Below are positions 4,141-62,274 of a DNA stretch of 64,000 nucleotides, piece by piece. The notes beneath the pieces were generated by a model. It was not told the origin of the DNA, ran no database searches, and was given only the letters and a program-made list of their open reading frames with translations. Where the stretch lies: assembly GCA_041601615.1 (NCBI GenBank), contig JBFIHX010000001.1:1-64000 (forward strand). The letters run 5' to 3'. This stretch comes from Thermoplasmatota archaeon. Lineage in GTDB: Archaea; Thermoplasmatota; E2; JACPAO01; JAHFTW01. The first letter of the stretch is position 1, and every line of letters starts with the position of its first letter. Made by a program: the position numbers and the translations under genes.

Positions 4141-4148
4141 TTATATAA
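4141..4148. promoter_or_regulatory. TATA box, candidate Pc-like cassette promoter
   Basis: TTATATAA in a GC-rich context, ~50 bp upstream of the array entry site. Confidence 0.45.
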
Positions 4149-47969: not shown

Positions 47970-48095
47970 ACCATTTTCGTTGAAGCGCGAAATCGCGATT
48001 GATTGCGACTACGGCACAAAGACGAGAGGGTTCCTACAGCCCCATGGCGAACGGGCCCCGGAATGAGGGGTGGCATACCGCTCAGAGCCTCAGAA

Positions 48096-48878
48096 CTACG
48101 CCACAAGCGTCACAGGCATCCCCGGCGCGCTGTGCGTCGACAAGCCGGGCCCAGGGGGCTGTAGGAAGCCAGAAACCTCTGCCGTCCCCGCCCCAAACTG
48201 CCAATGCGTATGCTCGCTGATGTGCAGATCCAACCTACCCACCACCTCGCGGTCCTCAACCACGAACAGCGGCAACATCTCCTGTGGCGTCGCGGCGGCC
48301 AAGCGGGGGGAAGTGCCCTCCACGGTTACACTGAAGCCCAGTGCCTGCGCGGACATCGAGGACGACATTGTCGCGGCCGTGCCCACGAGAATCGGCTCCT
48401 GGACCACGTCTCCTGCCAGAAACGGGATGCCTGCCAACGCAAACCACTGCTCCAACAAGGCCCCCTTGACTACGGGAGCGCCGGCAACTGCGTGGTACGT
48501 GGCATTTGCAACCCGTTCATCCTGGGGCGGAACGGCAGGAAACCAGGGCACCAAGAACGAGACCTGTGGTTCCTCGCAAAAGAACGCCACAAACAAGAGC
48601 GTCGCCGACGCCCCCGTAGGGTCTGCATCAGCATAAACATCGGGCGGCAGAGGAGGCATCAGCCCAAAACCATCCGGGACGTAGGGTGCGGCTTGGGCCG
48701 CCGTCACCGGAAAAATCCCAATTTGCTCGCGGCAATCCGACAACATCAGCGGCTCCAGCGGGGCAGGCGTAGGTGCGCCAGGCTCTGTATCCATGCCACC
48801 CACGTCGCTAGAAGGAGACAAGCATCCGGCTAGCAGCGGCGGGAGCAACAAGGCGAGGACGACCCATCGAGTGGCCAT
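48096..48878 (-). CDS. Hypothetical lipoprotein
   Basis: Lipobox LLAGCL. Confidence 0.7.
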   Translation of the reverse strand: MATRWVVLALLLPPLLAGCLSPSSDVGGMDTEPGAPTPAPLEPLMLSDCREQIGIFPVTAAQAAPYVPDGFGLMPPLPPDVYADADPTGASATLLFVAFFCEEPQVSFLVPWFPAVPPQDERVANATYHAVAGAPVVKGALLEQWFALAGIPFLAGDVVQEPILVGTAATMSSSMSAQALGFSVTVEGTSPRLAAATPQEMLPLFVVEDREVVGRLDLHISEHTHWQFGAGTAEVSGFLQPPGPGLSTHSAPGMPVTLVA

Positions 48879-48947
48879 GAGCAACCCCGATGGTTGGGCG
48901 GGCATGATGAGCCTATCCTCTCTGGGGTGCCGGGCAAAGGAATCGGT

Positions 48948-49373
48948 TCATTCCTCCTGCCGAGGCCACTGTCAGGCGTTTCGGATGATCAGCATGAGAA
49001 GCACGACCTCCACCCCAGCACCATACCAATAGGGAAGCGGCCACTCCTCTCCAATCACGTTTACAAGCGAATACGGGACATACAGCGCGGCCACAACGAG
49101 GTTTGCCCAGCGATTGATGTTCGCCGGCATGACCACAGAGAGAAAAATCATCAAGGCCGGAATTGACACGGTTACGAGCCCCGCTAACACAAATCCTTGG
49201 GTGATTTCAAAAACGAATACTCTGCCATCCATCAGGTCTTCGAGCACGCCTGGCATATAGAGATGGAAATAGTCAACATGGATGTACAGAAGCATAAATG
49301 ACGCTCAAGCGGCCGCCAACTTTTGCTTCACATTGACCTTGACATCCTCTAACGCCGCTTGGCGGACTTTCAT
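48948..49373 (-). pseudogene. DUF6326-like membrane protein with two in-frame TGA codons
   Basis: One frame reads MKVRQAALEDVKVNVKQKLAAA*ASFMLLYIHVDYFHLYMPG...IIRNA*QWPRQEE. TGA codons at 49305-49307 and 48972-48974. Confidence 0.75.
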
Positions 49374-49504
49374 GACTTGTGCCCTGCAGCTTGAAAGTAT
49401 AAACCTGGCGCCAAAGGTCAACCGCCGGCCGAAAGGCAGCGCAGACAAGTGCCTAATTCGGAGGCCGTGGTCATCGTGTCGGATTTCTGTTGGGGGCTTG
49501 GTTT

Positions 49505-49570
49505 CGTCCGATGAACTGTGTGCGGCGGGCTGCGTGGGTAGCAAGGAGTGGTTTGGGTGGATTGTTATCC
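49505..49570 (-). repeat. Highly degenerate attC site 7
   Basis: TGAACTG...GGAGTGGTTTGGGTGGATTGTTATCC aligns to the family consensus. Its GTTATCCTG pairs with CAGGAT at 50515-50520. Confidence 0.5.
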
Positions 49571-49619
49571 TGAGGACGGCCTGCAAATGTGCGTCTCCGA
49601 AGCGCGACTATTCGCCCCC

Positions 49620-49920
49620 CCCCGGTACAGGTCGGAAGTGTCATTTCCTCCACGGGTAAGATCCAGAAGGTGTCTTTGTTCATACGGAAGATGCTGTGGT
49701 CTACCAGAAAATAGTCGCCAGGAACTTCCTCTTCAATCGCAACGATGGGCGGCCTGCCGCCGGGAATGGGGGTGGTTTGGACGTTCTCATGCGACGTGCT
49801 CTCCAGGCCCCCTTACTTCCAAACACGGTCGAAGATTTCCCCATTGATGTTGAAGCTACTGAAGAGATTGGGACCGCCGTTTCCGACGAAGATGCGCACG
49901 GTGTCGCCGACCTCCGCTCG
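49620..49920 (-). pseudogene. nirK: Copper nitrite reductase C-terminal fragment
   Basis: Hand translation: [35 protein letters not shown]...ENVQTT...EVPGDYFLVDHSIFR. Stop at 49813-49815. Confidence 0.85.
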
Positions 49921-49964
49921 CCCCCCTCCGGCATGGTTATCGATTGCGTGGGGACTCCTCCTGC

Positions 49965-50441
49965 GTGAAGCGGCACCCGGCGTTTCAAGACCTCAGCCGC
50001 GACCACTTCACGGCGCTCCTGGCTTGCCTAAACGTCCGACGCGCCACCGAGGGACATCCATCCGCTCCAACACCAGAGGCGGCAATCGCTCAGTTCGGGC
50101 AACTTTGGCGCAATGAACTAACACATCATTTCGACGAAGAAGACGCCAACATTCAACCCGTCCTAGCTGCGAAAAAAGCCCACACCCAACTGGCTACACT
50201 ACGCCTTGATCACAAGGAGATTCGGGCCGCCATGGAAGCGCTCCACGCCAAAGATCCGGCCCCCACTTGGGCTGTAGCTGCAGAACGCCTACGCGCCCAC
50301 ATCCGGTGGGAAGAAGACGTACTATTCCCTTGGATGCAGGACCACCTCACCGATGAGGAATTGGAACGCATGTTGGCAGCCAGCATCGCCTTTCGCACCA
50401 AAGTTCGAGGGCCAGATTCGGTGAAACCACCAAGGCCCTAG
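49965..50441 (+). CDS. Hemerythrin (HHE) domain protein
   Basis: KRHP....[24 protein letters not shown]. Confidence 0.88.
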
Positions 50442-50516
50442 TCCAAGGGATACGATTCGAGCTCCTAGAACCGCTAGGGCTCTGGCGTGGTGGACGGGCA
50501 ACTCTGGACGGTGGCA

Positions 50517-50580
50517 GGATCCTGGTTGAACTGACCCGCCGTGAGCGGGGCGAGTGGTCGCGTTGAGCGATTTGTTGGGC
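50517..50580 (-). repeat. attC site 8 (R' core destroyed)
   Basis: GGATCCT-GGTTGAACTGACCCG...GTGGTCGCGTTGAGCGATTT-GTTGGGC; AAC is replaced by CCT. Confidence 0.8.
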
Positions 50581-50691
50581 GAAATTCGATGATTCATTGA
50601 ATCCACATGGGCCGTCGCGCGACAGAGGTGTCTGGCCTGAGGCAAGCAAGAAAACACACTCTGTCTTTGGCCTATGTCGAGTGGCGGGGCA

Positions 50692-51078
50692 CTATGTCAT
50701 CAGTGTCAGTTGGCTTCTTCGGATTTCGCGCATCCTCAACAATGTCTCTCGGAGTTCAACCACGCGCGCCGCGTCGCCACCGATGATGAGTACGTCCATG
50801 CAGGTCTCCGGTTCGCAATGCGTGTGCATCAAGCTCAGGACCACGTCATGGAAAGCATGGCGCACGTCTGAGATTTTGAAACTATGTTCGTGCGCGTAGG
50901 TCATTGTGATCGACCCATGCACGTGGCCCTCGGTGGCGCTGTGTTGGCGTTGCAGCAATTCTCGAATGGCGGCCCGCATGAATTCGCTGCGTCCCTGGTA
51001 ACGTCCCTGGTCGATGGCGGCGTCCATTTCGGCGGCCAGTTCGCTCGGGATGCTCATGCTGACAATGCCCATGTTCAT
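50692..51078 (-). CDS. NikR/CopG family metal-responsive regulator
   Basis: RHH (VSMSIP..GRSEFMRAAIR) plus NikR-type ligands H...MHTH..C. Confidence 0.9.
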   Translation of the reverse strand: MNMGIVSMSIPSELAAEMDAAIDQGRYQGRSEFMRAAIRELLQRQHSATEGHVHGSITMTYAHEHSFKISDVRHAFHDVVLSLMHTHCEPETCMDVLIIGGDAARVVELRETLLRMREIRRSQLTLMT

Positions 51079-51094
51079 ACGCGAAAACAGCCAA

Positions 51095-51105
51095 TGTTAT
51101 TAACA
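51095..51105. promoter_or_regulatory. Palindromic operator/promoter between divergent nikR and znuA
   Basis: TGTTA-T-TAACA in the short divergent intergenic region. Confidence 0.4.
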
Positions 51106-51146
51106 AATCGCAAAAGGCTATGAACCAATTGGGGTGGCCACCGCGC

Positions 51147-52043
51147 ATGAAACAGTTCACCCCTCTGCTCTTCGCAGTGCTCATGCTCTCAGGATGCGTC
51201 GGAAACGTGGAGCGCGCCGACTTGGTCGTCGCCAGTTACCCAGCCTACTTCGTCGCTTCCAACCTCGCCGGCGAGGACCTAAGCATCGCCGACCTAAATG
51301 GGGGCGCCCTGCACGGCTTCGAGGCCAGCGCACGCGATCTCGACCAACTGCGAACCTCCAGCCACCTCGTACTTTGGGACGAGGGCCTCGAATCATGGGC
51401 GCACCGCGCCGAAGCCGCTCTCGGCTCCTCCGCGCCAAAAGTCATCGAGATTACCGCATTGCCGGCAGGGGATGATCACCTGGAAGGCGGGGAAGAGGGC
51501 CATGGTGCCGGGCATGACCATGGAAAACTCGACCACGACCCCCATACCTGGAACGACCCCCTCGCCATGCGGGCCAGTGTCCAGGTACTCGAGGCCTACC
51601 TCATCGAGGCCTACCCCGAGTTCGCAGACAACATCGAAACGCGCGCGACGGACCTCAAGCAGCGCCTCGCCGAACTGCACGAGGCCTATGCATCTTCCCT
51701 GTCCGATTGCGCCCGTGACACGGTCGTCACGAACCACGAAGCCTACAACTACATGGCCCAGCGCTACGATTTCCACATATTCGCCCTCCACGGCATCGAA
51801 CCCGGGTCCGAACCGTCCCCCAAGACCGTGGACGAAGCCATCCAGAAGATCAAGGATCTCAAAATCCCTGTCATCTTCATCGAAGAGGGCACCGATTCTG
51901 GTGCCTTGAAGGCAATCCGTGACGAGACCGGCGTCCAAGTTCGCGTTCTCATCACCAGCGAGACCCGACCAGCAACCGGCGACTACATTGACTCGCAGAA
52001 TCGCAACCTGGATGAACTTCGATTCGCGTTGGGCTGCGCTTGA
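51147..52043 (+). CDS. znuA: Zn/Mn ABC transporter substrate-binding lipoprotein
   Basis: Lipobox LSGC, LHGFE, His-rich loop, DPHTW, HEAYNY. Confidence 0.9.
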   Translation: MKQFTPLLFAVLMLSGCVGNVERADLVVASYPAYFVASNLAGEDLSIADLNGGALHGFEASARDLDQLRTSSHLVLWDEGLESWAHRAEAALGSSAPKVIEITALPAGDDHLEGGEEGHGAGHDHGKLDHDPHTWNDPLAMRASVQVLEAYLIEAYPEFADNIETRATDLKQRLAELHEAYASSLSDCARDTVVTNHEAYNYMAQRYDFHIFALHGIEPGSEPSPKTVDEAIQKIKDLKIPVIFIEEGTDSGALKAIRDETGVQVRVLITSETRPATGDYIDSQNRNLDELRFALGCA

Positions 52044-52750
52044 GCATCCACGCGACGGATCTCTGCGTCCACTACGGCGACTATTGCGCATTGCATCACA
52101 TCGACTTCCAAGCCGAAGCGGGAGAGTTCATCGGCGTCGTCGGCCCCAACGGTGGTGGCAAGACGACGCTCATGCGTGCCCTCTTGGGCCTGCTGCGCTC
52201 TGCGCATGGCGAGCTCCGCGTCGACGGGCACGTCGCCTACGTCGCCCAAGACGCCGTTCATATGGATCCCAACATTCCGGTATCAGTCATGGAATTCGCA
52301 AACCTCGGCCGCCTGGACCGACGGTTCTGGCGCCGACCTTCGCAGGAAGACCGCGCCCGCATCCAGGAAGCCCTCGAAGAAACAGGCGTCTGGAACCTAC
52401 GGGCGCGGCGCCTCTCAGCACTCAGTGGCGGCCAACGCCAACGCGTTCACCTCGCCCAGGCCTTATGCCAAGACGCGAAGGTCCTGTTGCTGGACGAACC
52501 CACGACCGGCGTCGACCCCAAGAGCCGCCAAGAGCTTTACCAACTTCTGCGGCACTTGAGCCATGACCACGGGATCACCATCATCATGGTCAGCCACGAT
52601 ACCGAAAGTCTCGCCGACATTGCCGATCGGATCATCGTAGTGGACAAGACCAAGCGATTCGACGGCAACGGCCAGGCATACCGGGAGTGGTCTCGAACAG
52701 CACTTGAGCTCCCGGTTGACAACCCGTTCGGCGCGCACGAGGTACCATGA
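52040..52750 (+). CDS. znuC: Metal ABC transporter ATPase
   Basis: GPNGGGKTT, LSGGQRQR, LLDEPT, SHD. Confidence 0.92.
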   Translation: MSIHATDLCVHYGDYCALHHIDFQAEAGEFIGVVGPNGGGKTTLMRALLGLLRSAHGELRVDGHVAYVAQDAVHMDPNIPVSVMEFANLGRLDRRFWRRPSQEDRARIQEALEETGVWNLRARRLSALSGGQRQRVHLAQALCQDAKVLLLDEPTTGVDPKSRQELYQLLRHLSHDHGITIIMVSHDTESLADIADRIIVVDKTKRFDGNGQAYREWSRTALELPVDNPFGAHEVP

Positions 52751-53553
52751 GCTTCGACCTGTTCCTGACGGAGCCCTACTTTCAGCGCGTCCTTGCGACG
52801 GCCTTGGTCGTCGCGGCCACCTCTGCAGTCATCGGCGTATTCCTCGTCCAACGTGGCATGGCCTTGTTCGGCGATGGCATCGCGCACATGTCCTTTGCTG
52901 GCATCGCGCTTGGCTTCGTTGCGGGGTGGATGCCCTTGGGAGCCGCCATCGCCGTGGCCAGCCTCGGCGCCCTCGCCGTCCAAGAATTACAGCGCCGCAA
53001 TTGGGCCCGCTCCGATGCAGCCCTTGGCATTGTCTACACATCCTGCCTCGCCTTGGGTGTCGTCTTGGTCAGCAGCCAAGGATCGGTCCCGGTGGACGTC
53101 GAGTCGTATCTATTTGGCAACCTGCTTCTGGCGGGCGAACGAGAATTCACTCTAGCCGCAATCATAGCAGTGATTGTCGCCGGCACAGTCACGTTGCTGT
53201 GGAGGCCGTTCGTGCTGCTGTCGTTTGGCGAGGAACGTGCCAAGGTGCAGGGCTTGCCCGCAAAGGGCCTCAACACAATCTTCACGATTCTTACAGCCCT
53301 CGCCGTCGTCGCGTCTGTACGCGTCGTCGGTGTGCTGCTTGTCAGCGGCTTGCTCATCATTCCAGCGTCCGCCGCCAGTCGTCTAGCCCGCAGTATGCGC
53401 CAAGCGGTCCTTCTGAGCATTGCGTTCGCGTTGGGTGCGGTCGTCTTTGGCTTGGCAATCAGTGCCGAGTTCTCATTGGCGAGCGGGGCGACCATTGCGC
53501 TCACCGCCGCCGCCATCTTCGTGGCAACGGGATTTGCGCCCGGACGCAGGTGA
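52747..53553 (+). CDS. znuB: Metal ABC transporter permease
   Basis: GDGIAH, YLFGN, VGVLLVSGLLIIP. Confidence 0.92.
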   Translation: MSFDLFLTEPYFQRVLATALVVAATSAVIGVFLVQRGMALFGDGIAHMSFAGIALGFVAGWMPLGAAIAVASLGALAVQELQRRNWARSDAALGIVYTSCLALGVVLVSSQGSVPVDVESYLFGNLLLAGEREFTLAAIIAVIVAGTVTLLWRPFVLLSFGEERAKVQGLPAKGLNTIFTILTALAVVASVRVVGVLLVSGLLIIPASAASRLARSMRQAVLLSIAFALGAVVFGLAISAEFSLASGATIALTAAAIFVATGFAPGRR

Positions 53554-53629
53554 TCTTTCGCCACCGGAGCCCGAACGTCGAATGGGGCCGGTTTGCCTCA
53601 TCTCAACGCGTGCGATTTTGGCGAGGCCG

Positions 53630-53710
53630 CCCTAACACTCGAGCTGACCCGTCGCCAGCGAAGCGAGCTTGCGACCTCAGGAAGTGGTCGGGTCGAGTGG
53701 CTTGTTAGAC
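53630..53710 (-). repeat. attC site 9
   Basis: CCCTAAC-ACTCGAGCTGACCCG...GTGGTCGGGTCGAGTGGCTT-GTTAGAC. Confidence 0.9.
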
Positions 53711-54094
53711 AGCGCGTTTTACTCTCGTTTGCTGCTGGGTCAGCAACCAAGCGATGCGGCGGTGCGAAGCGAAATGATGAATCACAATTCCACTCGCGAA
53801 CAGGAGGCTAGCAACGCTCCACCCCGCGAGGATGAAGCCGCCAAGTCCCGCCACAAAGACGACGATCTCAATGGCAAGGCGAGTCGCGCCCCCTACCTCC
53901 ACAGGTGCATGCCCCTTGGAGCTTGGATCTTCGGGGACGCGAAAAATCACCCACGCGACCACGCCCACGGTGGGCAACCCGGCCGCCAACAGAAGGCGTG
54001 CCCATCCTGAGGTTGCCTGCAAACCAATTAGCGTGAGGCCGACGATTGCGGCAAGCTCGAGAGTAAACCGAAGAGCAAGGTTCGCGGGGTTCAT
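53705..54094 (-). CDS. YrdB/DUF2568 family membrane protein, cassette-borne
   Basis: NLALRFTLEL, W..F.VP.DP, RLAIE. The stop TAA lies inside the attC R'' box. Confidence 0.85.
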   Translation of the reverse strand: MNPANLALRFTLELAAIVGLTLIGLQATSGWARLLLAAGLPTVGVVAWVIFRVPEDPSSKGHAPVEVGGATRLAIEIVVFVAGLGGFILAGWSVASLLFASGIVIHHFASHRRIAWLLTQQQTRVKRAV

Positions 54095-54158
54095 GTGTGG
54101 TACTGCGGGGGGCATTCTCCAACCACAGTCAATGGAAGGCGGTGCCACGCTTAGCGCT

Positions 54159-54224
54159 GCCTAACGGTCGAACTGACCCGCTCCGGAGCGAAGCGGAGGA
54201 GTCGGGTTGAGTGACTTGTTAGCT
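54159..54224 (-). repeat. attC site 10
   Basis: GCCTAAC-GGTCGAACTGACCCGCTCC...GGAGTCGGGTTGAGTGACTT-GTTAGCT. Confidence 0.92.
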
Positions 54225-54226
54225 GG

Positions 54227-54682
54227 TCAAGATTGAAGCCCGATGCGGCCGGAACCGCAAGTTAGGTCAACCACGATGGCAATCGCGGTGATTGCAAACA
54301 CGCCGAGAACTGCTTGCCACATCTTGTAGGAACTGAAATGATACCATCGGCGCAGCTCAGGGTATTCCGTATCATTGCGTCCGGCTGTCGCATGAATAAC
54401 GGCGAGGCCATTGGCTGCGTCCTTCTCGAAAGCCTCCAAATGCTTGCCGGCGATAACTTCGTGCAGCCGGTGTTTCGCCATCAACTGCATGGACGCCAGG
54501 GCGACCAGGAAGGACAGGAGCGCGGCCACCAGTCGTGGGCCGCGTGAAATATCCGCTCCGAGCAATATCGAAAACAAGAATGCTTGAGCGGTTAGGCTCA
54601 ACACAGGAGTCTGCCACAACAGCGTATCAAGGCTTGTGCGGCGATCCGCCAGTACGGCGTATTGGCGTTTATCGATGGACAC
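54227..54682 (-). CDS. 3-TM membrane protein, first cassette of array 3
   Basis: LLWQTPVLSLTAQAFL and three TMs; stop 2 nt from the attC. Confidence 0.75.
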   Translation of the reverse strand: MSIDKRQYAVLADRRTSLDTLLWQTPVLSLTAQAFLFSILLGADISRGPRLVAALLSFLVALASMQLMAKHRLHEVIAGKHLEAFEKDAANGLAVIHATAGRNDTEYPELRRWYHFSSYKMWQAVLGVFAITAIAIVVDLTCGSGRIGLQS

Positions 54683-54720
54683 AGATTGTGAGGGGCGCCA
54701 TAGTTCTTGAACCCAGCTAA

Positions 54721-54834
54721 CTTGGTATTATCCCGCCTCCTTGGTATTATCCCGCCTCCTTGGTATTATCCCGCCTCCTTGGTATTATCCCGCCTCCTTG
54801 GTATTATCCCGCCTCCTTGGTATTATCCCGCATC
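54721..54834. repeat. Tandem repeat, 6 x 19 bp (CTTGGTATTATCCCGCCTC)
   Basis: Five perfect copies plus one with a single mismatch; no spacers. Confidence 0.97.
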
Positions 54835-54880
54835 AGCCCCTTCTTAGTATCGTCCATTCCCATTTTTTTAGCACCGACCA

Positions 54881-54996
54881 GCGGACATGTCCAAAACTTG
54901 CCGAGGCCACATACAAGAAAAATATTTGCGTAGTCTGGCATATCGCAAATATTAACATGTAACTAAAACTTGCCAGGCGCCACTGGACATGTCCGC
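54881..54996. promoter_or_regulatory. Nested inverted repeats upstream of the serine recombinase
   Basis: GCGGACATGTCCA(54881-93)/TGGACATGTCCGC(54984-96); AATATTTGCG(54921-30)/CGCAAATATT(54944-53); direct repeat AAAACTTGCC x2. Confidence 0.7.
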
Positions 54997-55140
54997 CCCA
55001 CACCCCCCAGTTTCCCACCCCCCATCCAAATTCATCAAGTAACGCATTACCCAAAATATTCAATAGAACCCACACCCCGCCAATAAAGCCGCCTCCAAAC
55101 CCACCCCGTTCAAATCACGCCCACCCCAGTCCACCCATAG

Positions 55141-55968
55141 ATGCGAACGCGCGTAGCCCTCTACACCCGCGTCAGCACGGAAGACCAAGCCAAAGAGGGA
55201 TTCAGCCTCGACGCGCAGCTGGATCGGCTCCAGAAGTACGCCGCGGCGCAAGACTGGGACATCGTCGACGCGTACGTGGACGAGGGCCAGAGCGGGCGCA
55301 CCACGAAGCGCCCCGAATACCAACGGATGCTTGCGGACCGCGAGCGTTGGGACACAATCCTTGTTCTGAAGATGGACCGCATCCACCGCAACAGCCGCAA
55401 CTTCATGGGCATGATGGACGCCCTGACGCGGGAGAACAAGGGATTTGCTAGCGTCACAGAGAGCCTGGACACCAGCACCGCCATGGGACGCTTCGTCATG
55501 GACATCATCCAACGCATCGCACAACTGGAGTCGGAGCAAATCGGCGAGCGCGTGTTTGTTGGCATGGAGCAGAAAGCCAAAACCTCCGGTGGCAGTCTCG
55601 GCAAGCCCGCGCCCTTCGGCTACGTCTACGGCGAAGACAGCGTGCTTCAGGTGGTCGCGGAGGAGGCGCCACATGTGCGATTCCTGTTCGAGACCTTCCG
55701 CGACGGCGCCGGCAAGCAGGCTCTTGCGGACGCGCTGAACGAACAGGGCGTGCCCACGCGCCGCAACACGATCTGGACGGTCTGGAACGTCACAGGCATC
55801 CTCTCGAACCCCACGTACGCCGGCGCGCTGCCGTGGGGTGAGCAATTGCAGATCGGCGCACACGAGCCCATCATTGGGCCCAAGCTGTTCAATCAAGTCC
55901 AGGATCGATTGCAAAGTACGTCCACCAAACGAACGTTTGTGCGGCTGCCTCAGGAGACGCTGTCTTAG
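55141..55968 (+). CDS. Serine recombinase (resolvase + recombinase domains, no Zn-ribbon/coiled coil)
   Basis: YTRVSTEDQ (catalytic Ser), DRIHRN, DTSTAMGR, PFGY, ILSNPTYAG, HEPII. Confidence 0.95.
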   Translation: MRTRVALYTRVSTEDQAKEGFSLDAQLDRLQKYAAAQDWDIVDAYVDEGQSGRTTKRPEYQRMLADRERWDTILVLKMDRIHRNSRNFMGMMDALTRENKGFASVTESLDTSTAMGRFVMDIIQRIAQLESEQIGERVFVGMEQKAKTSGGSLGKPAPFGYVYGEDSVLQVVAEEAPHVRFLFETFRDGAGKQALADALNEQGVPTRRNTIWTVWNVTGILSNPTYAGALPWGEQLQIGAHEPIIGPKLFNQVQDRLQSTSTKRTFVRLPQETLS

Positions 55969-56132: not shown

Positions 56133-56561
56133 TCACGAATCGGCGGATTCCAGGGGTTTGCTGGCGCCGACGGTCAAAAGCAGCAGGATATCCGACTCGA
56201 CTTGCCCTAGTGTCCGGTTGGCAAGAAAGTATGCGGCGAGAAACACTCCGGCAAAGGTGTTCGACACGGTCCTGAACAAGGAAAGCGCCGCCGACGTCTC
56301 CGAAGTTGCTCCGATGGCGCCCACGACGGCGACGGCAACGGCGGAGATCACAGACGCAAACAGGAAGGGCATCAGGAAGGCGCGGACGATCAGCCATTTG
56401 TTCATCAGGCGGGTGCGTTGCTGGAGAATCGCTTGCTCAATCAGACCTAGGTGGGGGGCCTCTTGCAGTCCATCCACGAGGTGACGGAAGCGATTGTTGA
56501 ACCACCACTTCCAGGGGTGGGAATATGGGTACACGAGCCGAGTAGAGCGGCCGTGCATCAA
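56133..56561 (-). CDS. Hypothetical 2-TM membrane protein (possibly frameshifted into 55990-56150)
   Basis: Two TMs; a lower-GC open frame continues in another phase. Confidence 0.45.
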   Translation of the reverse strand: MMHGRSTRLVYPYSHPWKWWFNNRFRHLVDGLQEAPHLGLIEQAILQQRTRLMNKWLIVRAFLMPFLFASVISAVAVAVVGAIGATSETSAALSLFRTVSNTFAGVFLAAYFLANRTLGQVESDILLLLTVGASKPLESADS

Positions 56562-56921: not shown

Positions 56922-57221
56922 CTATTCGAGCAGGGTGAAAAGAACGTCATCTTCGCCCACGTCGAACACACCGAGGCGCGCGCCCGCATCAAGCCAGCCA
57001 TGGGCGTAATTGACCTGTGCAAACGCATTGACGAAGTCTCCTCGAGCATGGTTGTGCACGGCATCGGCATGGTAGCTTGTTGCCATTTCCATGAAACTCT
57101 CCGCCATGCGCGCTGCGAAGCTCCGGCCAGGCGCCACGATGCGCGCTTTGGCAATTGCGCGCTTCGTCAGGTCCAGGTAGCGCTCTATTTTGGCGGGGGT
57201 GATCTCCGTCAGCGATTCCAC
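56922..57221 (-). CDS. DUF357 family protein
   Basis: MATSYHADA.H...GDFVNAFAQVNYAHGWLDAG. Confidence 0.92.
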   Translation of the reverse strand: MESLTEITPAKIERYLDLTKRAIAKARIVAPGRSFAARMAESFMEMATSYHADAVHNHARGDFVNAFAQVNYAHGWLDAGARLGVFDVGEDDVLFTLLE

Positions 57222-59350
57222 AAGCGGCGGATGCCGGAGCGCGACTTCGACCTTTCCTCACGAATCGATGCATGAAACTCGCATTGGTCGGCGAGTGGGC
57301 ACCTGATGCAGGCAGGAGCGTCGGCGTGGCAAGCGCGGCGGGCGATCTCGGCGTACAAGCCCAGCCGGGCATCGGGGCTGCGATGGTTTGTGTGTGCCAG
57401 CCGCGTGATTACTTCGATGGCGCGTTCCGGTCTCGTGCCGGTTGTGATGATGCCGACGCGTTCGGCCACGCGCGCAATGGCGGGAACATCGGCTTTGGAC
57501 CAGGGTGCGGTTGACCGGATGGGATTCGGCCGGGAATCCGGAGCTGCGGCGGAGGCGGCGGGACGTGTCTTCACGGGTTCTGCCTTGAATGCAACGTTGC
57601 TTGGCGGTTGCTTGGCAGAATCGGCGGGTGATGGCTTGGCGCTACGTCCGGGGCGCACCAATTCGCCTTCCACCAGCGGTATCTCCTGCATGGACGAGTC
57701 CGCCGAGGGTGTTGTTGGCCGTTGTGTGGGCGCAGCTTTTCGGGCGAGAGCGGTGGGCTCTGCGCGTACTGGCTCTGCCTCAGTCTCTGCCCCTGGTGCT
57801 GGGCCCATGCGGGGAATTGGTTCCACCGGATCTGGCCTCCGTGCAATGGGGCGAGGCGCTGGCTTGGGGCGAGCGGTCGCGGGATTGGCTGGGTCTTCGA
57901 CGACCTCGATGCTGCGGCCGCCGTGGCTGGTCATGCGAGGTCGAATCTCCACGAACACAGGCTGCGTAAGCCCTCCGCCGGCCACGAGGGCGCTGCCAAT
58001 GGCGAGGCGTTGCACTTCGTCGGCGGTCTGCGTGGTGATGCCCTCGACGCTGCTGACGATGGCTTTCAGGTCATTGGGATTCGTGACCTTGAGCACCACT
58101 TGCGTGTTGCACTGACTGAGCACGTTCTTGTCGATTTTTGCCGGCCTCTGGCTGACGATGACGAGGCCCATGCCGAATTTGCGGCCTTCGGAGGCAACGG
58201 TGCGTAGGATTGGGCCGCTGATGGCGTTGCCCACTCCGCGCTCGGGGCAGAAGTTGTGCGCCTCCTCGCAGACAAGAATGAATGGGGGGATGTCGCCGCG
58301 CTTGCGGGATTCCCAGAGGAGGCTGGTGAGCCGCGTGACGAGCACTTCTTGGATGTCGGGCGCTACTCCTTTGAGGTTGATGATGGAGCACTGTGCAGGG
58401 CGCACGAGGTCCCGCACGTCGTTGCCGCGAACATGAAAGAGTCCAGTGGCTTCGAGTGCTTCGAGGCTGTTGAGGACGTTCCATTTGGTCGCCGCCTTGT
58501 TGCGCGCCACCGCGTCCATGATGTCCTTGAGTGTGTAGGCCGGAAGGTGGTCCGTGACCTCCTTGACGGCTTGGTACAGGAGCCCCATTTGGCTGCCTTT
58601 GACGGATCCACCCATGAGGTCCACGAGTTCTCGACCGGTCAGGTTCATGCCCTCTAGGCGCAATTTTTCGGCGTCCGGATTGACGAATGTGTCTAGTGCA
58701 TACTCTTTGACTTGCTTGGCAAACGAACGGGGCTTGCTGCCGAAACGCGTCATGGTTTCCACTTCAGCGGGATCCACGTTGGCGTTGCGCAGGCTGCCGT
58801 ACTCCCCATGCGGATCTAGAATGACAAGCGGCACTCGGGCGTTGAGAAATTCTTCCAGGATCACGCCCACGGTGTACGACTTGCCTGCGCCGGTTTTGGC
58901 GAGCACGGAGACGTGCTTTTGGGCCAGCATGTTCATCGACAAGCGCACCGGGATGCTGCTTCCCTTGACGTGGCCAAGGTATGCACCGTCGGCGGCACCT
59001 TCGAGGCCCAAAATCTCCTGCACCAGGGCATCGTCGGCTCGGTACACTGCTTCGCCCGCTTTGAACGGCGTGCGGGGAACTTGGACGCGCCCGTGCGGGT
59101 CCATGAACCCAATGACGTGGACATTTCCCGAGAGCTTGTCTTCCGTGCTTGAGGCGCCGGAAACGGCATCCTCGAAGCTTAGGTTGGTCTTTCGAACCAC
59201 GTGCTGCACTTGGGCCAGAACGCTGCGGCCCGAGTGGTCCACGGAAATGTAGTCAAGACGCCGGAGGTCCCCATGAATTGCCACGTCGAAGTCGGTGCTT
59301 CCGACGTTGCCATAGATCACCCCCACTGCGTCCTGCATCTGGGTTTCCAT
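57209..59350 (-). CDS. HerA/DUF87 ATPase with C-terminal endonuclease III-like 4Fe-4S motif
   Basis: HAS barrel, HVSVLAKTGAGKS, DPHGEY, EEAHNF, EGRKFG, SQRP; C-terminal Cx6Cx2Cx5C. Confidence 0.9.
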   Translation of the reverse strand: METQMQDAVGVIYGNVGSTDFDVAIHGDLRRLDYISVDHSGRSVLAQVQHVVRKTNLSFEDAVSGASSTEDKLSGNVHVIGFMDPHGRVQVPRTPFKAGEAVYRADDALVQEILGLEGAADGAYLGHVKGSSIPVRLSMNMLAQKHVSVLAKTGAGKSYTVGVILEEFLNARVPLVILDPHGEYGSLRNANVDPAEVETMTRFGSKPRSFAKQVKEYALDTFVNPDAEKLRLEGMNLTGRELVDLMGGSVKGSQMGLLYQAVKEVTDHLPAYTLKDIMDAVARNKAATKWNVLNSLEALEATGLFHVRGNDVRDLVRPAQCSIINLKGVAPDIQEVLVTRLTSLLWESRKRGDIPPFILVCEEAHNFCPERGVGNAISGPILRTVASEGRKFGMGLVIVSQRPAKIDKNVLSQCNTQVVLKVTNPNDLKAIVSSVEGITTQTADEVQRLAIGSALVAGGGLTQPVFVEIRPRMTSHGGRSIEVVEDPANPATARPKPAPRPIARRPDPVEPIPRMGPAPGAETEAEPVRAEPTALARKAAPTQRPTTPSADSSMQEIPLVEGELVRPGRSAKPSPADSAKQPPSNVAFKAEPVKTRPAASAAAPDSRPNPIRSTAPWSKADVPAIARVAERVGIITTGTRPERAIEVITRLAHTNHRSPDARLGLYAEIARRACHADAPACIRCPLADQCEFHASIREERSKSRSGIRRLWNR

Positions 59351-59677
59351 GGTGGGGCCTGCCTTGAAGGTTCGGAACTGAAGCGGTCCTTCCAGTGGCT
59401 CCAGTGGAGGCACCCATGCCCTGAAATCCCCGCCAAAACCCCGATTTATTCCCGAGACTCAGGGATTGGATACAAATGACCCACTCCATTCCAAGCAAAT
59501 ACTTCCTCCCGAATGCTGCTCTTGGAACTCAGCCAGCAGCTCCCGGCGCGTCTGCATTATTGGGTGCCGGCACTGGAGGGGCCTAAACCCGATGGGAATC
59601 TGGGTCTTGCTTCGCCTAGGCGCTATTTCTTGACCATGCTGGGGTGAGGTGCGTTTGCTCCCGCCCCATGTTTGATG

Positions 59678-59923
59678 CTAAAGCATCTCAAGCTGCGACA
59701 TGATGTTCCACACCAATGTGCGGCCGTGCAGCGGGATGTTGGGGTCGTTGGCCATGTCGTCGAGCTTTGAGATGGCGCGCGCCTTGCGCACATCCATGGG
59801 CTCCTTGGCATCCAATAGAAGCGCCTTAATTTCGTCCGCGAGGCGGCGGATGTTGCGTGGGACGCTGCTGTCCTCAAGGAGCATGTCCAAGCCGGTGTTG
59901 ATGTTTTCGATTTTGGTGGCCAT
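59678..59923 (-). CDS. UPF0147 family protein
   Basis: DSSVPRNIRR, DPNIPLHGRT..WNIMSQLE. Confidence 0.93.
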   Translation of the reverse strand: MATKIENINTGLDMLLEDSSVPRNIRRLADEIKALLLDAKEPMDVRKARAISKLDDMANDPNIPLHGRTLVWNIMSQLEML

Positions 59924-59988
59924 GGTGGCACCTCCGAAGGTAGGGCGGCCGACTTGGGCCCCTCTTGAAACGGTTTCGGTGGGCCCCC

Positions 59989-62274
59989 CTAGGTTGAACC
60001 GATTCGGGAAGGAGCGGGGCGGTCCAATATAGCGCGAATATCTGCCGCAACTTTGGTGCCAATGCCGGGCACCTGGGCCAGTGCTTCTTCGCTGGCCATA
60101 AACACTGCACTCACCGAGCCAAAATGGGCAAGCAGCGCGTCGGCTCTTTTTCCGGAGACGCCGGGGAGTCCGGCCAGGATGAACAATTGCGTATCGTCGT
60201 CGCTGCGGGGTGGCGCTGGACGGATGGCGAGCGCGCGATTTTCACGGCCCTGTTCTCTCTTGGCTACGGCATGCAGAAACCGTGCCGTTTCCAGGCTGTC
60301 TCTTGTCTGAAGGACGGGGATTCCGAAATCTACGGTGGTGCTGGCGAGGGCGGCCATGATTGCTTCTGGAGCGATGTTTCGATGGCCTTGGAGTCCTTCG
60401 CCTTCCAGAATCAGATAGGGTCGCGGGTAGGTCTTGAGGTTCTTCAGCTGCTCCCAGAGCCGGCCATCCACCAACGAATCAACGAAATCTTTTCCCGTTT
60501 TGCGTTCTATCGCTATCCTGTCGCTGAGAATGAAATCCGCTACTTCCAGCGTCCTTGTCTCGACTTGGACTCCCAATTGGCTCAGGTGCTTGACCACGCC
60601 ACCTGCCTGCTCACGGGCATCGCATATGATCTTGGGCCCTGGCGCAAATCCAACCTCGGCGGGAGCCCTAGACTCTGGCAAAGCTTGGGGCGCGCCCAAC
60701 CGCTGTTGGCCCAATGCCACACCTCGGGGCACTTCTGGGCGGCCAGCCATTTTGGCTCGCAGCCCCATCAACTCCTTGACCATCGCCTGCTCCTTGCGGC
60801 GGCTGCTCCAATGTGCCGCTTCGTCGCTGGTGCCCTTGGTCATGAGCACCACGACTCGGCCGTCTCGACTGCGGCCTGTGCGGCCCCGGCGTTGAATACT
60901 TCGAATCTCGGAGGGAATGGGCTCGTAGAACACCACGAGGTCGGTTTGAGGCACATCCAGGCCTTCTTCGGCGACACTGGTGGCCACTAGGACGTTGTGT
61001 TCGCCGGCGCGGAACCGGTCCAGAAGAGCACCTTGCTGCTTTTGGGTCAGACCGTCCTGGCCCTTGCGCTTGCCCTGTCCAACAAACACCACGGGCGAAA
61101 CCCCTTCGAGCTTGGCAAGCCGGGCCGCGACCGCCTCACAGGTGCTCCGGTAGTGGGTGAAGACAATGGCTTTGGAAGCTGGATCTTTTTCGAGTTGTTC
61201 CTGGACGAGTGCTTGCACGCGCCCCATTTTGGGGTTCTCGGATTCATCGTGCCGGGCAACATGAAACGCCTGAATCACTTCAGGATCGTCCACGATGGAG
61301 CGTGTGGCCTTGCTGGACTTGGGGCTGTCTGATTCCTTGCGAAGTTGTTCAATGTAGGCGACGAACGCACCCGAGCCTTGCGTCTGCGCCTGTTCGAGCG
61401 CGTGCAGGATTTTCATAGCCTGCGCTTGGAGACTGAGCGCCTTGAACCAAGAAGGGTCTGGTTCTGTGGTGCTCGCCACGGCGCGTTGGGCCTTGCGGCC
61501 AGCTTCGAGCAGCTTCATGCGCGTGGGGCGGCCCGTGGCGTCCAGGATGTTCAATTCCCGCAGAATCCGAACTCGTTTTTGCAGAGCGTCTTCCAGCAGG
61601 CGCCGTACTTTTTCCATGGCCTCTGGCAGCGGAAGTGTTTCCCAATCGGTCTTGATTTCCTGCACGTACTCCGACACATCCGGGTCGTTGGGCGTGCGGA
61701 TTTCCACATGTTCCAGTCCCAAATGAAGTCGGACTTCGTCGATTTTTTGGATGTCGTGGCCGGGACTCGCAGTGAGGCCGAGTCGGCGGTGGCGCGGGGC
61801 GCGACGTTGCAGCGTGTCTCCGATGAAGGCGTAGGGGTACTCCCCTACGGCTCGGTGGCATTCGTCGTAGACGACCCAATCGAATGCGGGGTCCACGCGG
61901 TCACTCACGAGGTCGTTTTGGATGACCTGGGGTGTGGCGACCACGATGCTGGCGCCCTCATAGGCTTGCTTGCGCGTCTCTGGGCTTACGTGGCCGGTGA
62001 GGACACGCACGCGGTCGCTCCAGGGGGCGACGAGGGTTTCGCGCAGAAACGCTCCGTGTTGTTCCACGAGTGGCTTTGTAGGTGCAAGAAGGAGGATCCG
62101 TTGCGCACCGGCATCGACTGCGTCCGCCAGTGCCAAAACGGCTACCACCGTTTTGCCCATGCCGGTGGGGAGCACCACGAGGGTGTCGCGCCGACCCGCG
62201 ATGCGGGCAAGATTCGCCTGGTAGCCGCGAAACGCGAAGGTCTCGGGACGCAGGCGCGGATGGGCAAGGAACAA
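59989..62274 (-). CDS. hef: Hef (FANCM-like SF2 helicase + ERCC4 nuclease + HhH)
   Basis: LPTGMGKT, DECH, TASPG, EEGLD, QRRGRTGR, ERKT..DF, LPGV. Confidence 0.96.
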   Translation of the reverse strand: MFLAHPRLRPETFAFRGYQANLARIAGRRDTLVVLPTGMGKTVVAVLALADAVDAGAQRILLLAPTKPLVEQHGAFLRETLVAPWSDRVRVLTGHVSPETRKQAYEGASIVVATPQVIQNDLVSDRVDPAFDWVVYDECHRAVGEYPYAFIGDTLQRRAPRHRRLGLTASPGHDIQKIDEVRLHLGLEHVEIRTPNDPDVSEYVQEIKTDWETLPLPEAMEKVRRLLEDALQKRVRILRELNILDATGRPTRMKLLEAGRKAQRAVASTTEPDPSWFKALSLQAQAMKILHALEQAQTQGSGAFVAYIEQLRKESDSPKSSKATRSIVDDPEVIQAFHVARHDESENPKMGRVQALVQEQLEKDPASKAIVFTHYRSTCEAVAARLAKLEGVSPVVFVGQGKRKGQDGLTQKQQGALLDRFRAGEHNVLVATSVAEEGLDVPQTDLVVFYEPIPSEIRSIQRRGRTGRSRDGRVVVLMTKGTSDEAAHWSSRRKEQAMVKELMGLRAKMAGRPEVPRGVALGQQRLGAPQALPESRAPAEVGFAPGPKIICDAREQAGGVVKHLSQLGVQVETRTLEVADFILSDRIAIERKTGKDFVDSLVDGRLWEQLKNLKTYPRPYLILEGEGLQGHRNIAPEAIMAALASTTVDFGIPVLQTRDSLETARFLHAVAKREQGRENRALAIRPAPPRSDDDTQLFILAGLPGVSGKRADALLAHFGSVSAVFMASEEALAQVPGIGTKVAADIRAILDRPAPSRIGST

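What the first reader, a model, noticed from the sequence alone, without database searches (positions are those of the whole stretch)
53630..55968. Serine recombinase sits in the position IntI would occupy
Seen: array 3 runs leftwards from 54721, and a 275-aa serine recombinase is transcribed divergently 420 bp away, the canonical intI-attI-cassette geometry. Known: attC recombination is done by tyrosine IntI on folded single strands, and I know of no serine-recombinase integron. Inference: either a non-canonical cassette system, a recombinase that mobilises the array platform, or coincidence. Similar short recombinases may be ordinary chromosomal genes in this lineage.
Basis: inference. Interest (0 to 1): 0.72.

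Follow-up and report, generated by a model that had tools for sequence, protein, structure and literature searches.

The report
Conserved recombinase beside stray integron cassettes
The serine recombinase is an ordinary, conserved chromosomal gene of this archaeal lineage that happens to sit beside a small integron-type cassette cluster, while the genome's true integron integrase lies on another contig.

Summary
Two strong attC sites (53626-53713, 54156-54227) and one decayed site (50514-50580) form a leftward array. It ends at 54720, 420 bp from a divergent, intact 275-aa serine recombinase.

The integron-like reading does not hold.
- A canonical integron integrase (TIGR02249, 414.7 bits) lies on contig C16 with an 11-site array and a defined attI.
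- The recombinase has matches in 50 of 61 related genomes. In 18 of 19 family loci it sits 155-555 nt behind lipB, with no attC within 1.5 kb in any of the 19.

The sister species has an uninterrupted 515-bp lipB-recombinase spacer, so about 6.8 kb of cassette DNA was inserted here only. The genome's attI recurs at three other arrays but not at this one. This locus is therefore a cluster of attC sites lacking an integrase (CALIN), most likely built in trans by IntI at a secondary site.

The bolder reading left open is that this recombinase family is a housekeeping, Xer-like chromosomal recombinase. It anticorrelates with XerA across the phylum. The scan noted a "landing pad" for this family before, on other DNA (e1-1238778).

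The parts
47361..47966 (+). lipB-like lipoyl/octanoyl transferase. In relatives it is the gene immediately upstream of the recombinase.
   Evidence: PF21948 LplA-B_cat, 113.4 bits. It lies 155-555 nt upstream of the recombinase in 18 of 19 family loci.
48020..54720 (.). About 6.8 kb of inserted DNA between lipB and the recombinase. It is absent from the sister species. The left limit is approximate.
   Evidence: G002 has a 515-bp lipB-recombinase spacer. Spacer similarity is seen only at 47984-48019 and 54883-54999.
50514..50580 (+). Decayed attC site, with both R boxes degraded.
   Evidence: Model R2, 38.5 bits, E 7e-8.
50692..53553 (.). nikR-like regulator (-) and znuA, znuC, znuB (+), lying between two attC sites.
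   Evidence: Pfam NikR_C, ZnuA, ABC_tran and ABC-3. In G002 the same four genes (61-85% identity) lie on another contig, next to genes syntenic with C3, with no attC.
53626..53713 (+). attC site, bottom strand on +.
   Evidence: R1 75.7 bits, R2 55.9 bits.
53705..54148 (-). Cassette ORF, 147 aa, DUF2568 membrane protein.
   Evidence: PF10823, 56.1 bits.
54156..54227 (+). attC site, the best-preserved of the array.
   Evidence: R1 78.9 bits, R2 83.2 bits.
54227..54682 (-). First cassette ORF, 151 aa, membrane protein.
   Evidence: ORF list. Only a sub-threshold PF24838 match: 20.3 bits against a cut-off of 30.
54716..54721 (+). Array end. The cassette R' remnant GCTAA is joined to non-attC DNA at the canonical crossover position.
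   Evidence: Sequence compared with the attC flanks in alignment A3. No similarity to the genome's attI.
54721..54834 (+). Six tandem copies of a 19-bp unit, starting at the crossover base.
   Evidence: The unit occurs nowhere else in the genome. Public collections give none in the metagenome scan and two unrelated single matches in genomes.
54881..54996 (.). Intact 116-bp quasi-palindrome upstream of the recombinase. The outer arms are GCGGACATGTCCA / TGGACATGTCCGC. The inner arms are AATATTTGCG, 13 nt, CGCAAATATT. It is a candidate protein-binding or recombination site.
   Evidence: The exact 10-mer occurs only at these two places in the window. The same palindrome recurs three times, about 104 nt apart, in the G002 spacer.
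55141..55968 (+). Short serine recombinase, 275 aa: catalytic domain plus recombinase domain, no zinc-ribbon or coiled-coil part.
   Evidence: It is the only PF00239 match in the genome.
56133..56561 (-). 142-aa membrane protein, a conserved convergent neighbour of the recombinase.
   Evidence: tblastn matches in 13 of 19 family loci. No Pfam family.
56922..62274 (-). DUF357, HerA, an 81-aa ORF and Hef: the conserved syntenic flank of the recombinase.
   Evidence: Pfam. Synteny in L023, L024 and L026-L030.
388..4257 (+). Control array in the same window. It has four attC sites (388, 1914, 2835, 3563) and ends in a copy of the genome's true attI (4090-4257), with no intI beside it.
   Evidence: The attI copy is 161 of 168 identical to C16:15779-15946, and the homology starts at the TAAC junction.

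Best explanation
Two unrelated things lie side by side.

(1) The 275-aa serine recombinase is a vertically inherited, single-copy chromosomal gene of this Thermoplasmatota lineage. It is fixed in the gene order lipB - recombinase - 142-aa ORF - DUF357 - HerA - Hef. Its catalytic residues are intact.

(2) In this genome alone, about 6.8 kb of integron-type cassette DNA was inserted into the short lipB-recombinase spacer. The insert holds three attC sites, two small membrane-protein cassettes and a nikR-znuABC block.

The array belongs to the genome's ordinary tyrosine-integrase integron system. That system has one IntI with an attI and an 11-cassette array on contig C16, and about 55 attC sites in about 22 clusters genome-wide.

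This array lacks both intI and the genome's attI sequence, so it is a CALIN. I infer that IntI, acting in trans, recombined folded attC bottom strands with a secondary site in the spacer. It would then have kept adding cassettes at the junction at 54720. I infer that the serine recombinase plays no part in cassette recombination.

Shown: the conservation and synteny of the recombinase, the existence of IntI and attI elsewhere, the absence of linkage, and the lineage-specific insertion. Inferred: which enzyme made the junction, and the order of insertion.
For: **IntI and attI elsewhere**
- C16:15954-17264 matches TIGR02249 at 414.7 bits against a cut-off of 265, over profile positions 5-314 of 315.
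- It lies to the right of 11 same-strand attC sites, in the same geometry as here.
- A defined attI recurs at the integrase-proximal end of three other clusters: window 4090-4257 (161 of 168 identical), C5:18814-18854 and C25:1353-1386.
- The junction here has no similarity to that attI. The alignment score is 22, against shuffles of 17.7 +/- 2.9 with a maximum of 31.

**Conservation of the recombinase**
- It matches in 50 of 61 related genomes, and in 29 of 31 high-quality ones. Identity is 90% in the genus, 61-81% in the family and about 51-59% in the class.
- lipB lies 155-555 nt upstream in 18 of 19 family loci. The 19th contig ends 1.1 kb upstream.
- DUF357 and HerA lie downstream.
- The catalytic residues R10, S12, D79, R80 and R83 are invariant in 18 sequences.

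**No linkage to attC**
- 0 of 19 loci have an attC within 1.5 kb.
- 1 of 12 loci extended to about 10 kb has one, at 6.2 kb and beyond lipB.
- attC sites were found in 18 of 61 genomes, against recombinase matches in 50 of 61.

**Lineage-specific insertion**
- The sister species has an intact 515-bp spacer.

**Signs of an IntI-type junction**
- Similarity to the cassette ends exactly at AA|C.
- attC scores fall with distance from the junction: 83.2, 55.9 and 38.5 bits.
Against: - The adjacency is not expected by chance: roughly 1% under uniform placement, by my own estimate.
- The junction is not the genome's attI, so an IntI reaction there is inferred and not shown.
- A 3-kb, four-gene 'cassette' (nikR-znuABC) is atypical. 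It may have arrived by rearrangement and not by cassette insertion.
- An earlier scan note (e1-1238778, unchecked) reports a mobile element without an integrase next to this recombinase family in another genome. The spacer may therefore be a preferred landing site, and the adjacency may not be pure chance.
- The model R2 was built from this genome's sites and could miss divergent attC sites in distant relatives.
Confidence: 0.8

Rival explanations
1. The recombinase mobilised the platform. On this view the lipB-recombinase spacer holds the recombinase's own target site. All or part of the 6.8-kb block arrived as a circle integrated there by the host serine recombinase, in the manner of elements that exploit Xer at dif. 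IntI then added cassettes later.
For: - A 116-bp quasi-palindrome and repeated TTGCG...CGCAA motifs lie directly upstream of the recombinase, here and in relatives.
- An earlier scan note reports a virus-like element without an integrase at a palindromic site beside this recombinase family, near lipB, in another genome (unchecked).
- nikR-znuABC sits elsewhere in the sister species.
Against: - The quasi-palindrome is intact and lies 160 bp from the junction.
- No repeat longer than 8 nt is shared between the two ends of the block.
- The right junction falls exactly at the attC crossover base, which is a tyrosine-integrase signature and not a serine-recombinase one.
- 18 of 19 relatives have an unoccupied short spacer.
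Confidence: 0.1
2. This is a non-canonical integron in which the serine recombinase, sitting in the IntI position, itself recombines the attC cassettes.
For: Only the geometry: a divergent gene 420 bp from the array end, and six tandem 19-bp repeats that could in principle be protein-binding sites.
Against: - The same attC family is served by a canonical IntI and attI on C16.
- Orthologues of the recombinase are unlinked to attC.
- The recombinase occurs in families where no attC was found. In the 61-genome set f4 has 9 of 10 with a recombinase match and 0 of 10 with an attC, and f5 has 8 of 8 and 0 of 8.
- By established knowledge (recalled), serine recombinases cut double-stranded sites with a 2-bp stagger, not folded single strands.
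Confidence: 0.02
3. The adjacency is an assembly artefact: a chimeric join across the 19-bp repeat.
For: Logan contigs of all 4 runs break inside the repeat, between 54750 and 54802, and none spans it.
Against: - The insert lies between two genes, lipB and the recombinase, that are neighbours in 18 of 19 relatives. A chimera would not restore that order.
- The 19-mer is unique in the genome.
- Contigs from both sides run into the repeat at equal depth, about 26 in run X1.
Confidence: 0.03

Closest known systems
CALIN (cluster of attC sites lacking an integron integrase) within a sedentary chromosomal integron system, as described for Archaea by Ghaly et al. 2022 (PMC9668308; passages read)
   Same: - The attC sites are structured and covarying, with one ORF per cassette on the top strand.
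- No intI lies nearby, while a complete integron (IntI, attI and array) sits elsewhere in the same genome.
- The paper states that most archaeal integrons are CALINs and that their cassettes can be handled by IntI in trans.
   Different: - The array ends neither in the genome's attI nor in another attC, but in a unique 19-bp x 6 repeat.
- One 'cassette' is a four-gene nikR-znuABC block.
- 'Thermoplasmat' does not occur in the paper's main text. I did not open its supplements, which list the genomes.
Large serine recombinases (TP901-1 integrase, A118 integrase, SCCmec CcrB)
   Same: - The N-terminal catalytic domain matches the TP901-1 integrase structure 3bvp at E 1.2e-31.
- A PF07508 recombinase domain follows it.
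- The best NCBIfam match is CcrB, 161.7 bits over residues 2-231.
   Different: - It is only 275 aa.
- There is no zinc-ribbon or coiled-coil domain, and the CcrB score is far below that model's 900-bit cut-off.
- It is not on a mobile element. It is single-copy, syntenic and conserved across a class.
Xer/dif chromosome-dimer resolution and the elements that exploit it (XerA in archaea: Cortez et al. 2010, PMC2958812, passages read)
   Same: This is a likeness in function only, for the novel reading.
- A conserved host-encoded site-specific recombinase.
- Palindromic DNA next to its gene.
- A family-level distribution that is largely complementary to XerA.
- A possible landing pad for integrase-less elements.
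   Different: - The chemistry is serine, not tyrosine.
- No dif-like site is defined and no activity has been shown.
- 43 of 301 genomes carry both.
Tn3 / gamma-delta resolvase with res beside tnpR
   Same: A serine catalytic domain (2gm4 at E 3.2e-9), with repeated inverted-repeat motifs immediately upstream of the recombinase gene.
   Different: There is no C-terminal HTH_7 domain, no transposase neighbour, and the gene is chromosomal and syntenic.

Membership tests
Complete integron at this locus | An integron integrase gene (a tyrosine recombinase with the IntI-specific insert) adjacent to the array | tested here: not met
   The genome has 3 PF00589 matches, none in the window. The gene in the IntI position is a serine recombinase. 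The true IntI is at C16:15954-17264.
Complete integron at this locus | attI between the integrase and the first cassette | tested here: not met
   The genome's attI (C16:15779-15946, with copies at three other clusters) has no similarity to 54700-54870.
Complete integron at this locus | Cassettes each bounded by attC sites that fold as imperfect hairpins | tested here: met
Complete integron at this locus | A Pc promoter reading into the cassettes | not tested
   No promoter scan was run, and no run on record as RNA was listed.
CALIN | Two or more attC sites close together with no integron integrase nearby (definition recalled from the IntegronFinder papers; wording 'clusters of attCs lacking IntIs' read in PMC9668308) | tested here: met
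   There are three sites at 50514, 53626 and 54156, and no tyrosine recombinase in the 64-kb window.
Large serine recombinase | Resolvase-type catalytic domain with the nucleophilic serine | tested here: met
   PF00239, 130.2 bits. S12 and R10, D79, R80, R83 are invariant.
Large serine recombinase | Recombinase domain (PF07508) | tested here: met
   61.1 bits, residues 174-258.
Large serine recombinase | Zinc-ribbon domain with an embedded coiled coil | tested here: not met
   No further Pfam family at E up to 0.01, and the protein ends 17 residues after the recombinase domain. The 120 best homologues are 270-345 aa with the same two domains.
Small resolvase / invertase | C-terminal helix-turn-helix DNA-binding domain directly after the catalytic domain | tested here: not met
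   No HTH family was reported. The C-terminal part is PF07508 instead.
Integron integrase (the C16 gene) | A match to the integron-integrase subfamily model above its cut-off | tested here: met
   TIGR02249, 414.7 bits against a cut-off of 265.

The most novel reading that the evidence does not exclude
The short serine recombinase family is a housekeeping chromosomal site-specific recombinase of many Thermoplasmatota. It would be a serine-chemistry counterpart of XerA that acts on palindromic DNA beside its own gene. That site would double as a landing pad for foreign DNA, which would make the cassette array's position here less than pure chance.

Support so far, in a sample of 301 phylum genomes:
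- 126 carry the recombinase and 181 a XerA-like gene.
- By family, the recombinase and XerA-like counts are: f10 40 of 40 and 3 of 40; f1 12 of 14 and 1 of 14; f28 0 of 50 and 48 of 50; f13 0 of 24 and 23 of 24.
- Only 4 of the 52 genomes with XerA above its curated cut-off also have the recombinase.

Further support:
- In f10 the gene is a tandem pair.
- In 10 of 10 f10 genomes examined (9 closed; G141 is 2 contigs) the pair lies 0.30-0.50 chromosome lengths from the best orc1/cdc6 gene.
- The catalytic core is nearly invariant across the class.

Against:
- 43 of 301 genomes have both genes, and f4, f5, f9 and f20 are mixed.
- A second orc1/cdc6 gene lies only 40-270 kb from the pair.
- The genomes are related, so the counts are not independent.
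- No site or activity has been shown.
Probability: 0.3. Interest if true: 0.75.

Novelty: new member of a known kind. Interest (0 to 1): 0.35.

Why it matters
A serine-recombinase integron would have been a new class of gene-capture system. The evidence says this is not one, which saves a costly follow-up.

What remains has value in three ways:
- It is a well-resolved archaeal integron system: one IntI, a defined attI with three extra copies, and about 55 attC sites in about 22 clusters. It includes an array that grew at a non-attI site and holds a whole nikR-znuABC operon between attC sites. That bears on how cassettes spread through chromosomes and how they arise.
- It puts on record a conserved, syntenic serine recombinase family in archaea. 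A 2021 review says archaeal serine recombinases were seen only in transposons and never investigated (PMC8371274, passage read).
- If that family replaces XerA, it would change how chromosome maintenance in this phylum is understood.

Tried and rejected
- **Rfam.** No family reached its gathering score anywhere in the window. The attC sites were therefore modelled from the genome's own copies (R1 and R2).
- **The 19-bp repeat elsewhere.** It is unique in the genome at up to 3 mismatches. The metagenome scan gave 0 matches. Reference genomes gave 2 single matches in unrelated bacteria, which I take as chance.
- **Repeat versus attI.** There is no similarity between the repeat or junction and the C16 attI.
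- **Repeats flanking the insert.** Nothing longer than 8 nt is shared between 47941-48400 and 54651-55145.
- **Sequencing runs.** Four runs of one study hold the stretch, and one may be the source. All are Logan contigs. None joins lipB directly to the recombinase. Contigs break at attC sites and inside the 19-bp repeat. The listed 'joints' have sides of only 20-21 letters inside attC repeats, and I do not count them. No RNA holder was listed.
- **GC skew.** Cumulative GC skew along contig C1 has no extreme near 55 kb. Both orc1/cdc6 genes lie on other contigs. The locus cannot be placed relative to the origin or terminus in this genome.
- **Leader motif.** An AAACCGGGG-like motif lies about 45 nt before the recombinase start in 14 of 20 loci. 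I could not assign it a role.
- **Spacer k-mers.** Counting k-mers over 19 spacers gave only loose GCGAATA and ATATTTGC motifs.
- **Not run.** Structure prediction, complex prediction, the protein atlas and the representative-protein search were not run. The question was settled by comparative genomics.
- **Literature.** Searches with 'integron, archaea, attC, serine recombinase' and 'serine recombinase, XerA, chromosome dimer, Methanomassiliicoccales, Thermoplasmatota' listed no paper, by title or abstract, on a conserved chromosomal serine recombinase in this phylum or on a serine-recombinase integron.
Full report
**The observation**

The finding's coordinates hold. ORF 55141-55968 (+) encodes 275 aa with a Resolvase catalytic domain (PF00239, 130.2 bits) and a Recombinase domain (PF07508, 61.1 bits), and nothing else at E up to 0.01. 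It is the only PF00239 match in the 2.79-Mb, 30-contig genome.

To its left lie attC-like elements. I built a covariance model from four window copies (R1) and a second from 21 copies of this genome (R2). They score as follows:
- 54156-54227: 78.9 / 83.2 bits
- 53626-53713: 75.7 / 55.9 bits
- 50514-50580, a decayed copy: 38.5 bits

Over the 21 aligned sites, 96.4% of cells form standard pairs. Eight of 19 pairs carry compensatory changes. None of 500 shuffles reaches the observed covariation score, and sliding the partners by 1-3 columns drops pairing to 28-46%. These are real structured sites.

On the + strand the single-base bulges lie on the 3' arm (fold). By my recalled knowledge of attC this marks + as the recombining bottom strand. 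Consistently, the two cassette ORFs (54227-54682 and 53705-54148) lie on the - strand, each followed by its attC. The array therefore runs leftwards.

Similarity to attC flanks stops exactly at GCTAA|C (54716-54721), the canonical crossover position. The base at 54721 is also the first base of six tandem 19-bp units. The recombinase ATG is 420 bp further on.

**The genome has an ordinary integron**

R1 finds 56 matches in the genome. That is 55 distinct sites after dropping one reverse-strand echo, in about 22 clusters on 13 contigs at 5-kb linkage (my hand count).

The largest array has 11 sites (C16:115-13890), all on the + strand. To its right, also on +, is a 436-aa tyrosine recombinase (C16:15954-17264). 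It matches the integron-integrase model TIGR02249 at 414.7 bits against a cut-off of 265, over positions 5-314 of 315. This is the same divergent geometry as in the finding, but with the expected enzyme.

The 168 bp between that array's last cassette junction and intI recur elsewhere:
- 96% identical (161 of 168) at window 4090-4257, starting exactly at the TAAC junction. This is the integrase-proximal end of the window's first array (attC sites at 388, 1914, 2835, 3563).
- Shorter copies at the proximal ends of two more clusters: C5:18814-18854 (88% of 41) and C25:1353-1386 (91% of 34).

So the genome's attI is defined, and it marks four arrays. The junction of the array in question has no similarity to it. 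The local alignment score is 22, against shuffles of 17.7 +/- 2.9 with a maximum of 31. This locus has attC sites but neither intI nor attI. It is a CALIN.

**The recombinase is a conserved chromosomal gene**

tblastn over 61 related genomes, G000 included, finds it in 50, and in 29 of 31 high-quality ones. Four of the 50 are weak matches near E 1e-14 that I take as paralogues. Identity falls with taxonomic distance: 90% in the genus, 61-81% in the family and about 51-59% in the class. It is nearly always single-copy.

The gene order is conserved:
- In 19 family loci, 13 have the 142-aa ORF downstream, 15 have DUF357 and 10 reach HerA.
- Longer loci show Hef, an 81-aa ORF, HerA, DUF357, the 142-aa ORF, the recombinase and lipB in line.
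- lipB ends 155-555 nt upstream of the recombinase in 18 of 19 loci. In the 19th the contig ends 1.1 kb upstream.

In the window, lipB is at 47361-47966, 7.2 kb away. The sister species (90% identical recombinase) has lipB and the recombinase 515 bp apart. Its spacer matches the window only at 47984-48019 and 54883-54999. About 6.8 kb (roughly 48020-54720) was therefore inserted in this lineage only.

**No linkage to attC**

- R2 finds no site within 1.5 kb of the recombinase in any of the 19 relatives' loci.
- In 12 loci extended to as much as 10 kb a side, it finds one. In G020 the site lies 6.2 kb away, beyond lipB, and in the opposite relative orientation.
- Genome-wide, R2 finds attC sites in 18 of 61 genomes.
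- Recombinase orthologues (E up to 1e-40) occur in 13 of the 17 relatives with attC sites and in 32 of the 43 without (my count).
- In G033 an array lies 24 kb from the recombinase. In the others the listed sites are on other contigs. Twenty-six matches were not listed.

R2 comes from one genome and may miss divergent sites in distant families. That limits the negative result there, but not within the family.

**What the insert holds**

Reading leftwards from the junction:
1. A 151-aa membrane protein, with only a sub-threshold 8xMP match
2. attC
3. A DUF2568 membrane protein
4. attC
5. znuB, znuC and znuA on the opposite strand, plus a NikR-like regulator
6. The decayed attC
7. A hemerythrin-domain protein, a DUF6326 protein and a 269-aa protein with no family

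attC scores fall with distance from the junction: 83.2, 55.9 and 38.5 bits. This fits repeated insertion at one point, with the oldest cassettes furthest away. That is an inference.

The nikR-znuABC block exists in the sister species at 61-85% identity. There it lies on another contig, next to genes syntenic with this genome's contig C3, with no attC. Four other relatives lack znuA. The block is accessory, and I cannot say how it reached its place here.

**Mechanism**

The most economical account is that the C16 IntI acted in trans. It would have recombined a folded attC with a non-attI site in the spacer and gone on using the regenerated junction.

Ghaly et al. 2022 state that most archaeal integrons are CALINs and that their cassettes can be handled by IntI in trans (PMC9668308, passages read). 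Insertion of cassettes at secondary genomic sites has been reported for bacteria. I recall that work but did not read it here.

Nothing requires the serine recombinase. Its known chemistry (recalled) acts on double-stranded sites.

**What the recombinase may do**

Its catalytic core is nearly invariant over class-level divergence. R10, S12, D79, R80, R83 and the whole stretch from ESLDT to QIGER are conserved.

Its closest solved relative is the catalytic domain of TP901-1 integrase (3bvp, E 1.2e-31). Its best NCBIfam match is CcrB, far below that model's cut-off. It lacks the zinc-ribbon and coiled-coil part that defines large serine recombinases. The 120 best of 3115 homologues share this short form, at 270-345 aa.

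Directly upstream lies an intact 116-bp quasi-palindrome (54881-54996). Its outer 13-nt arms contain the palindrome GGACATGTCC, which occurs exactly only there in the window. The sister species has three copies about 104 nt apart. Looser TTGCG...CGCAA motifs recur in relatives' spacers.

In a sample of 301 phylum genomes of at least 85% completeness, the recombinase (E up to 1e-30) is in 126 and a XerA-like gene (NF040815, E up to 1e-40) in 181. The two are largely complementary by family:

| Family | Recombinase | XerA-like |
|---|---|---|
| f10 | 40 of 40 | 3 of 40 |
| f1 | 12 of 14 | 1 of 14 |
| f28 | 0 of 50 | 48 of 50 |
| f13 | 0 of 24 | 23 of 24 |
| f23 | 0 of 6 | 6 of 6 |

By my hand count, 43 genomes have both, 83 have only the recombinase, 138 have only the XerA-like gene and 37 have neither. 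Of the 52 genomes with XerA above its curated cut-off, 4 have the recombinase. Families f4, f5, f9 and f20 are mixed.

In f10 and its neighbours the gene is a tandem pair. The pair sits beside the thermosome gene in 3 of 4 loci examined. In 10 of 10 f10 genomes examined (9 closed; G141 is 2 contigs) the pair lies 0.30-0.50 chromosome lengths from the best-scoring orc1/cdc6 gene. Sizes are exact for three of these genomes and rounded for the rest. A second orc1/cdc6 gene lies 40-270 kb from the pair, and the genomes are related. I treat this as a hint only.

That agrees with a landing-pad idea.

A 2021 review says archaeal serine recombinases were seen in transposons and never investigated (PMC8371274, passage read). 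Cortez et al. 2010 note that archaea lacking xerA may have recruited another recombinase (PMC2958812, passage read). My two literature searches listed nothing on this family.

**Checks on the assembly**

Four public runs of one study hold the stretch, and one may be its source. Their contigs cover lipB through the insert without a break in run X1 (47300-54190). They break at attC repeats and inside the 19-bp repeat, and they resume through the recombinase at the same depth.

No contig spans the repeat, so its copy number is uncertain. The unit is unique in the genome, and the insert sits between two genes that are neighbours in relatives. A chimeric join is unlikely.

**Verdict**

- The locus is a new archaeal member of a known kind: a CALIN of a tyrosine-integrase integron system, lodged by a lineage-specific insertion in front of a conserved chromosomal serine recombinase.
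- The recombinase family itself is the more interesting lead.

Noticed in passing
window 4090-4257 (and G000 C16:15779-15946): The window's first attC array (388-3642 plus one more cassette) ends in a 96% identical copy (161 of 168) of the C16 integron's attI. There is no intI beside it. An alpha/beta-hydrolase ORF (4384-5097) follows. This genome therefore holds several attI-bearing platforms served by one IntI.
   Followed up: yes
G000 C5:18814-18854 and C25:1353-1386: Shorter copies of the attI core (88% of 41 nt and 91% of 34 nt) lie at the integrase-proximal ends of two more attC clusters.
   Followed up: partly
window 50581-53625; L042 (G002:C75) 4360-7236: A whole nikR-znuABC operon lies between two attC sites here. 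In the sister species the same four genes (61-85% identity) sit in an ordinary chromosomal context with no attC. This may be a case of a host operon caught between attC sites.
   Followed up: partly
phylum-wide: The short serine recombinase family and XerA-like genes are largely complementary by family across 301 Thermoplasmatota genomes. 43 genomes have both, 83 only the recombinase, 138 only the XerA-like gene and 37 neither (my hand count).
   Followed up: partly
L037 6400-8038, L038 5704-7274, L039 6652-8296, L040 5877-7519: In a family with many closed 1.3-2.2-Mb genomes the recombinase is a tandem pair of paralogues (40 of 40 genomes). The pair sits next to the thermosome gene in 3 of 4 loci examined. 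It lies 0.30-0.50 chromosome lengths from the best orc1/cdc6 gene in 10 of 10 genomes examined (9 closed, 1 in 2 contigs).
   Followed up: partly
window 54881-54996; L023 (G002:C81) spacer 2384-2897: A 116-bp quasi-palindrome with GGACATGTCC arms lies upstream of the recombinase. The same palindrome occurs three times at a spacing of about 104 nt in the sister species' spacer.
   Followed up: partly
about 45 nt upstream of the recombinase start, in L004-L014, L016, L018 and L020: A conserved AAACCGGGG-like element (up to 2 mismatches) lies at a fixed offset in 14 of 20 loci. Its role is unknown. The window's own copy is degenerate.
   Followed up: partly
window 54721-54834: The 19-bp x 6 tandem repeat is unique to this genome and begins at the crossover base. 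Earlier notes of this scan report tandem duplications in intergenic DNA elsewhere in this genome.
   Followed up: partly
window 54161-54222: In run X1 this 62-nt attC forms its own contig at about twice the local depth (51 against 26), with several different loose ends on both sides. The same attC sequence therefore stands in other contexts in the sample.
   Followed up: no
G000 C13:22281-22610 (L002 2281-2610): A weak tyrosine-recombinase match (29.1 bits, 384-aa frame) lies about 1 kb from a single attC (C13:23674). It is at the distal side, not the attI side.
   Followed up: no
window 29341-29413: A lone attC site lies in an intergenic gap between convergent or adjacent genes. About ten such singletons are scattered over the genome. 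Earlier notes of this scan on 'hairpin-rich inserts' behind gene ends in this genome might concern the same elements. I did not test this.
   Followed up: no
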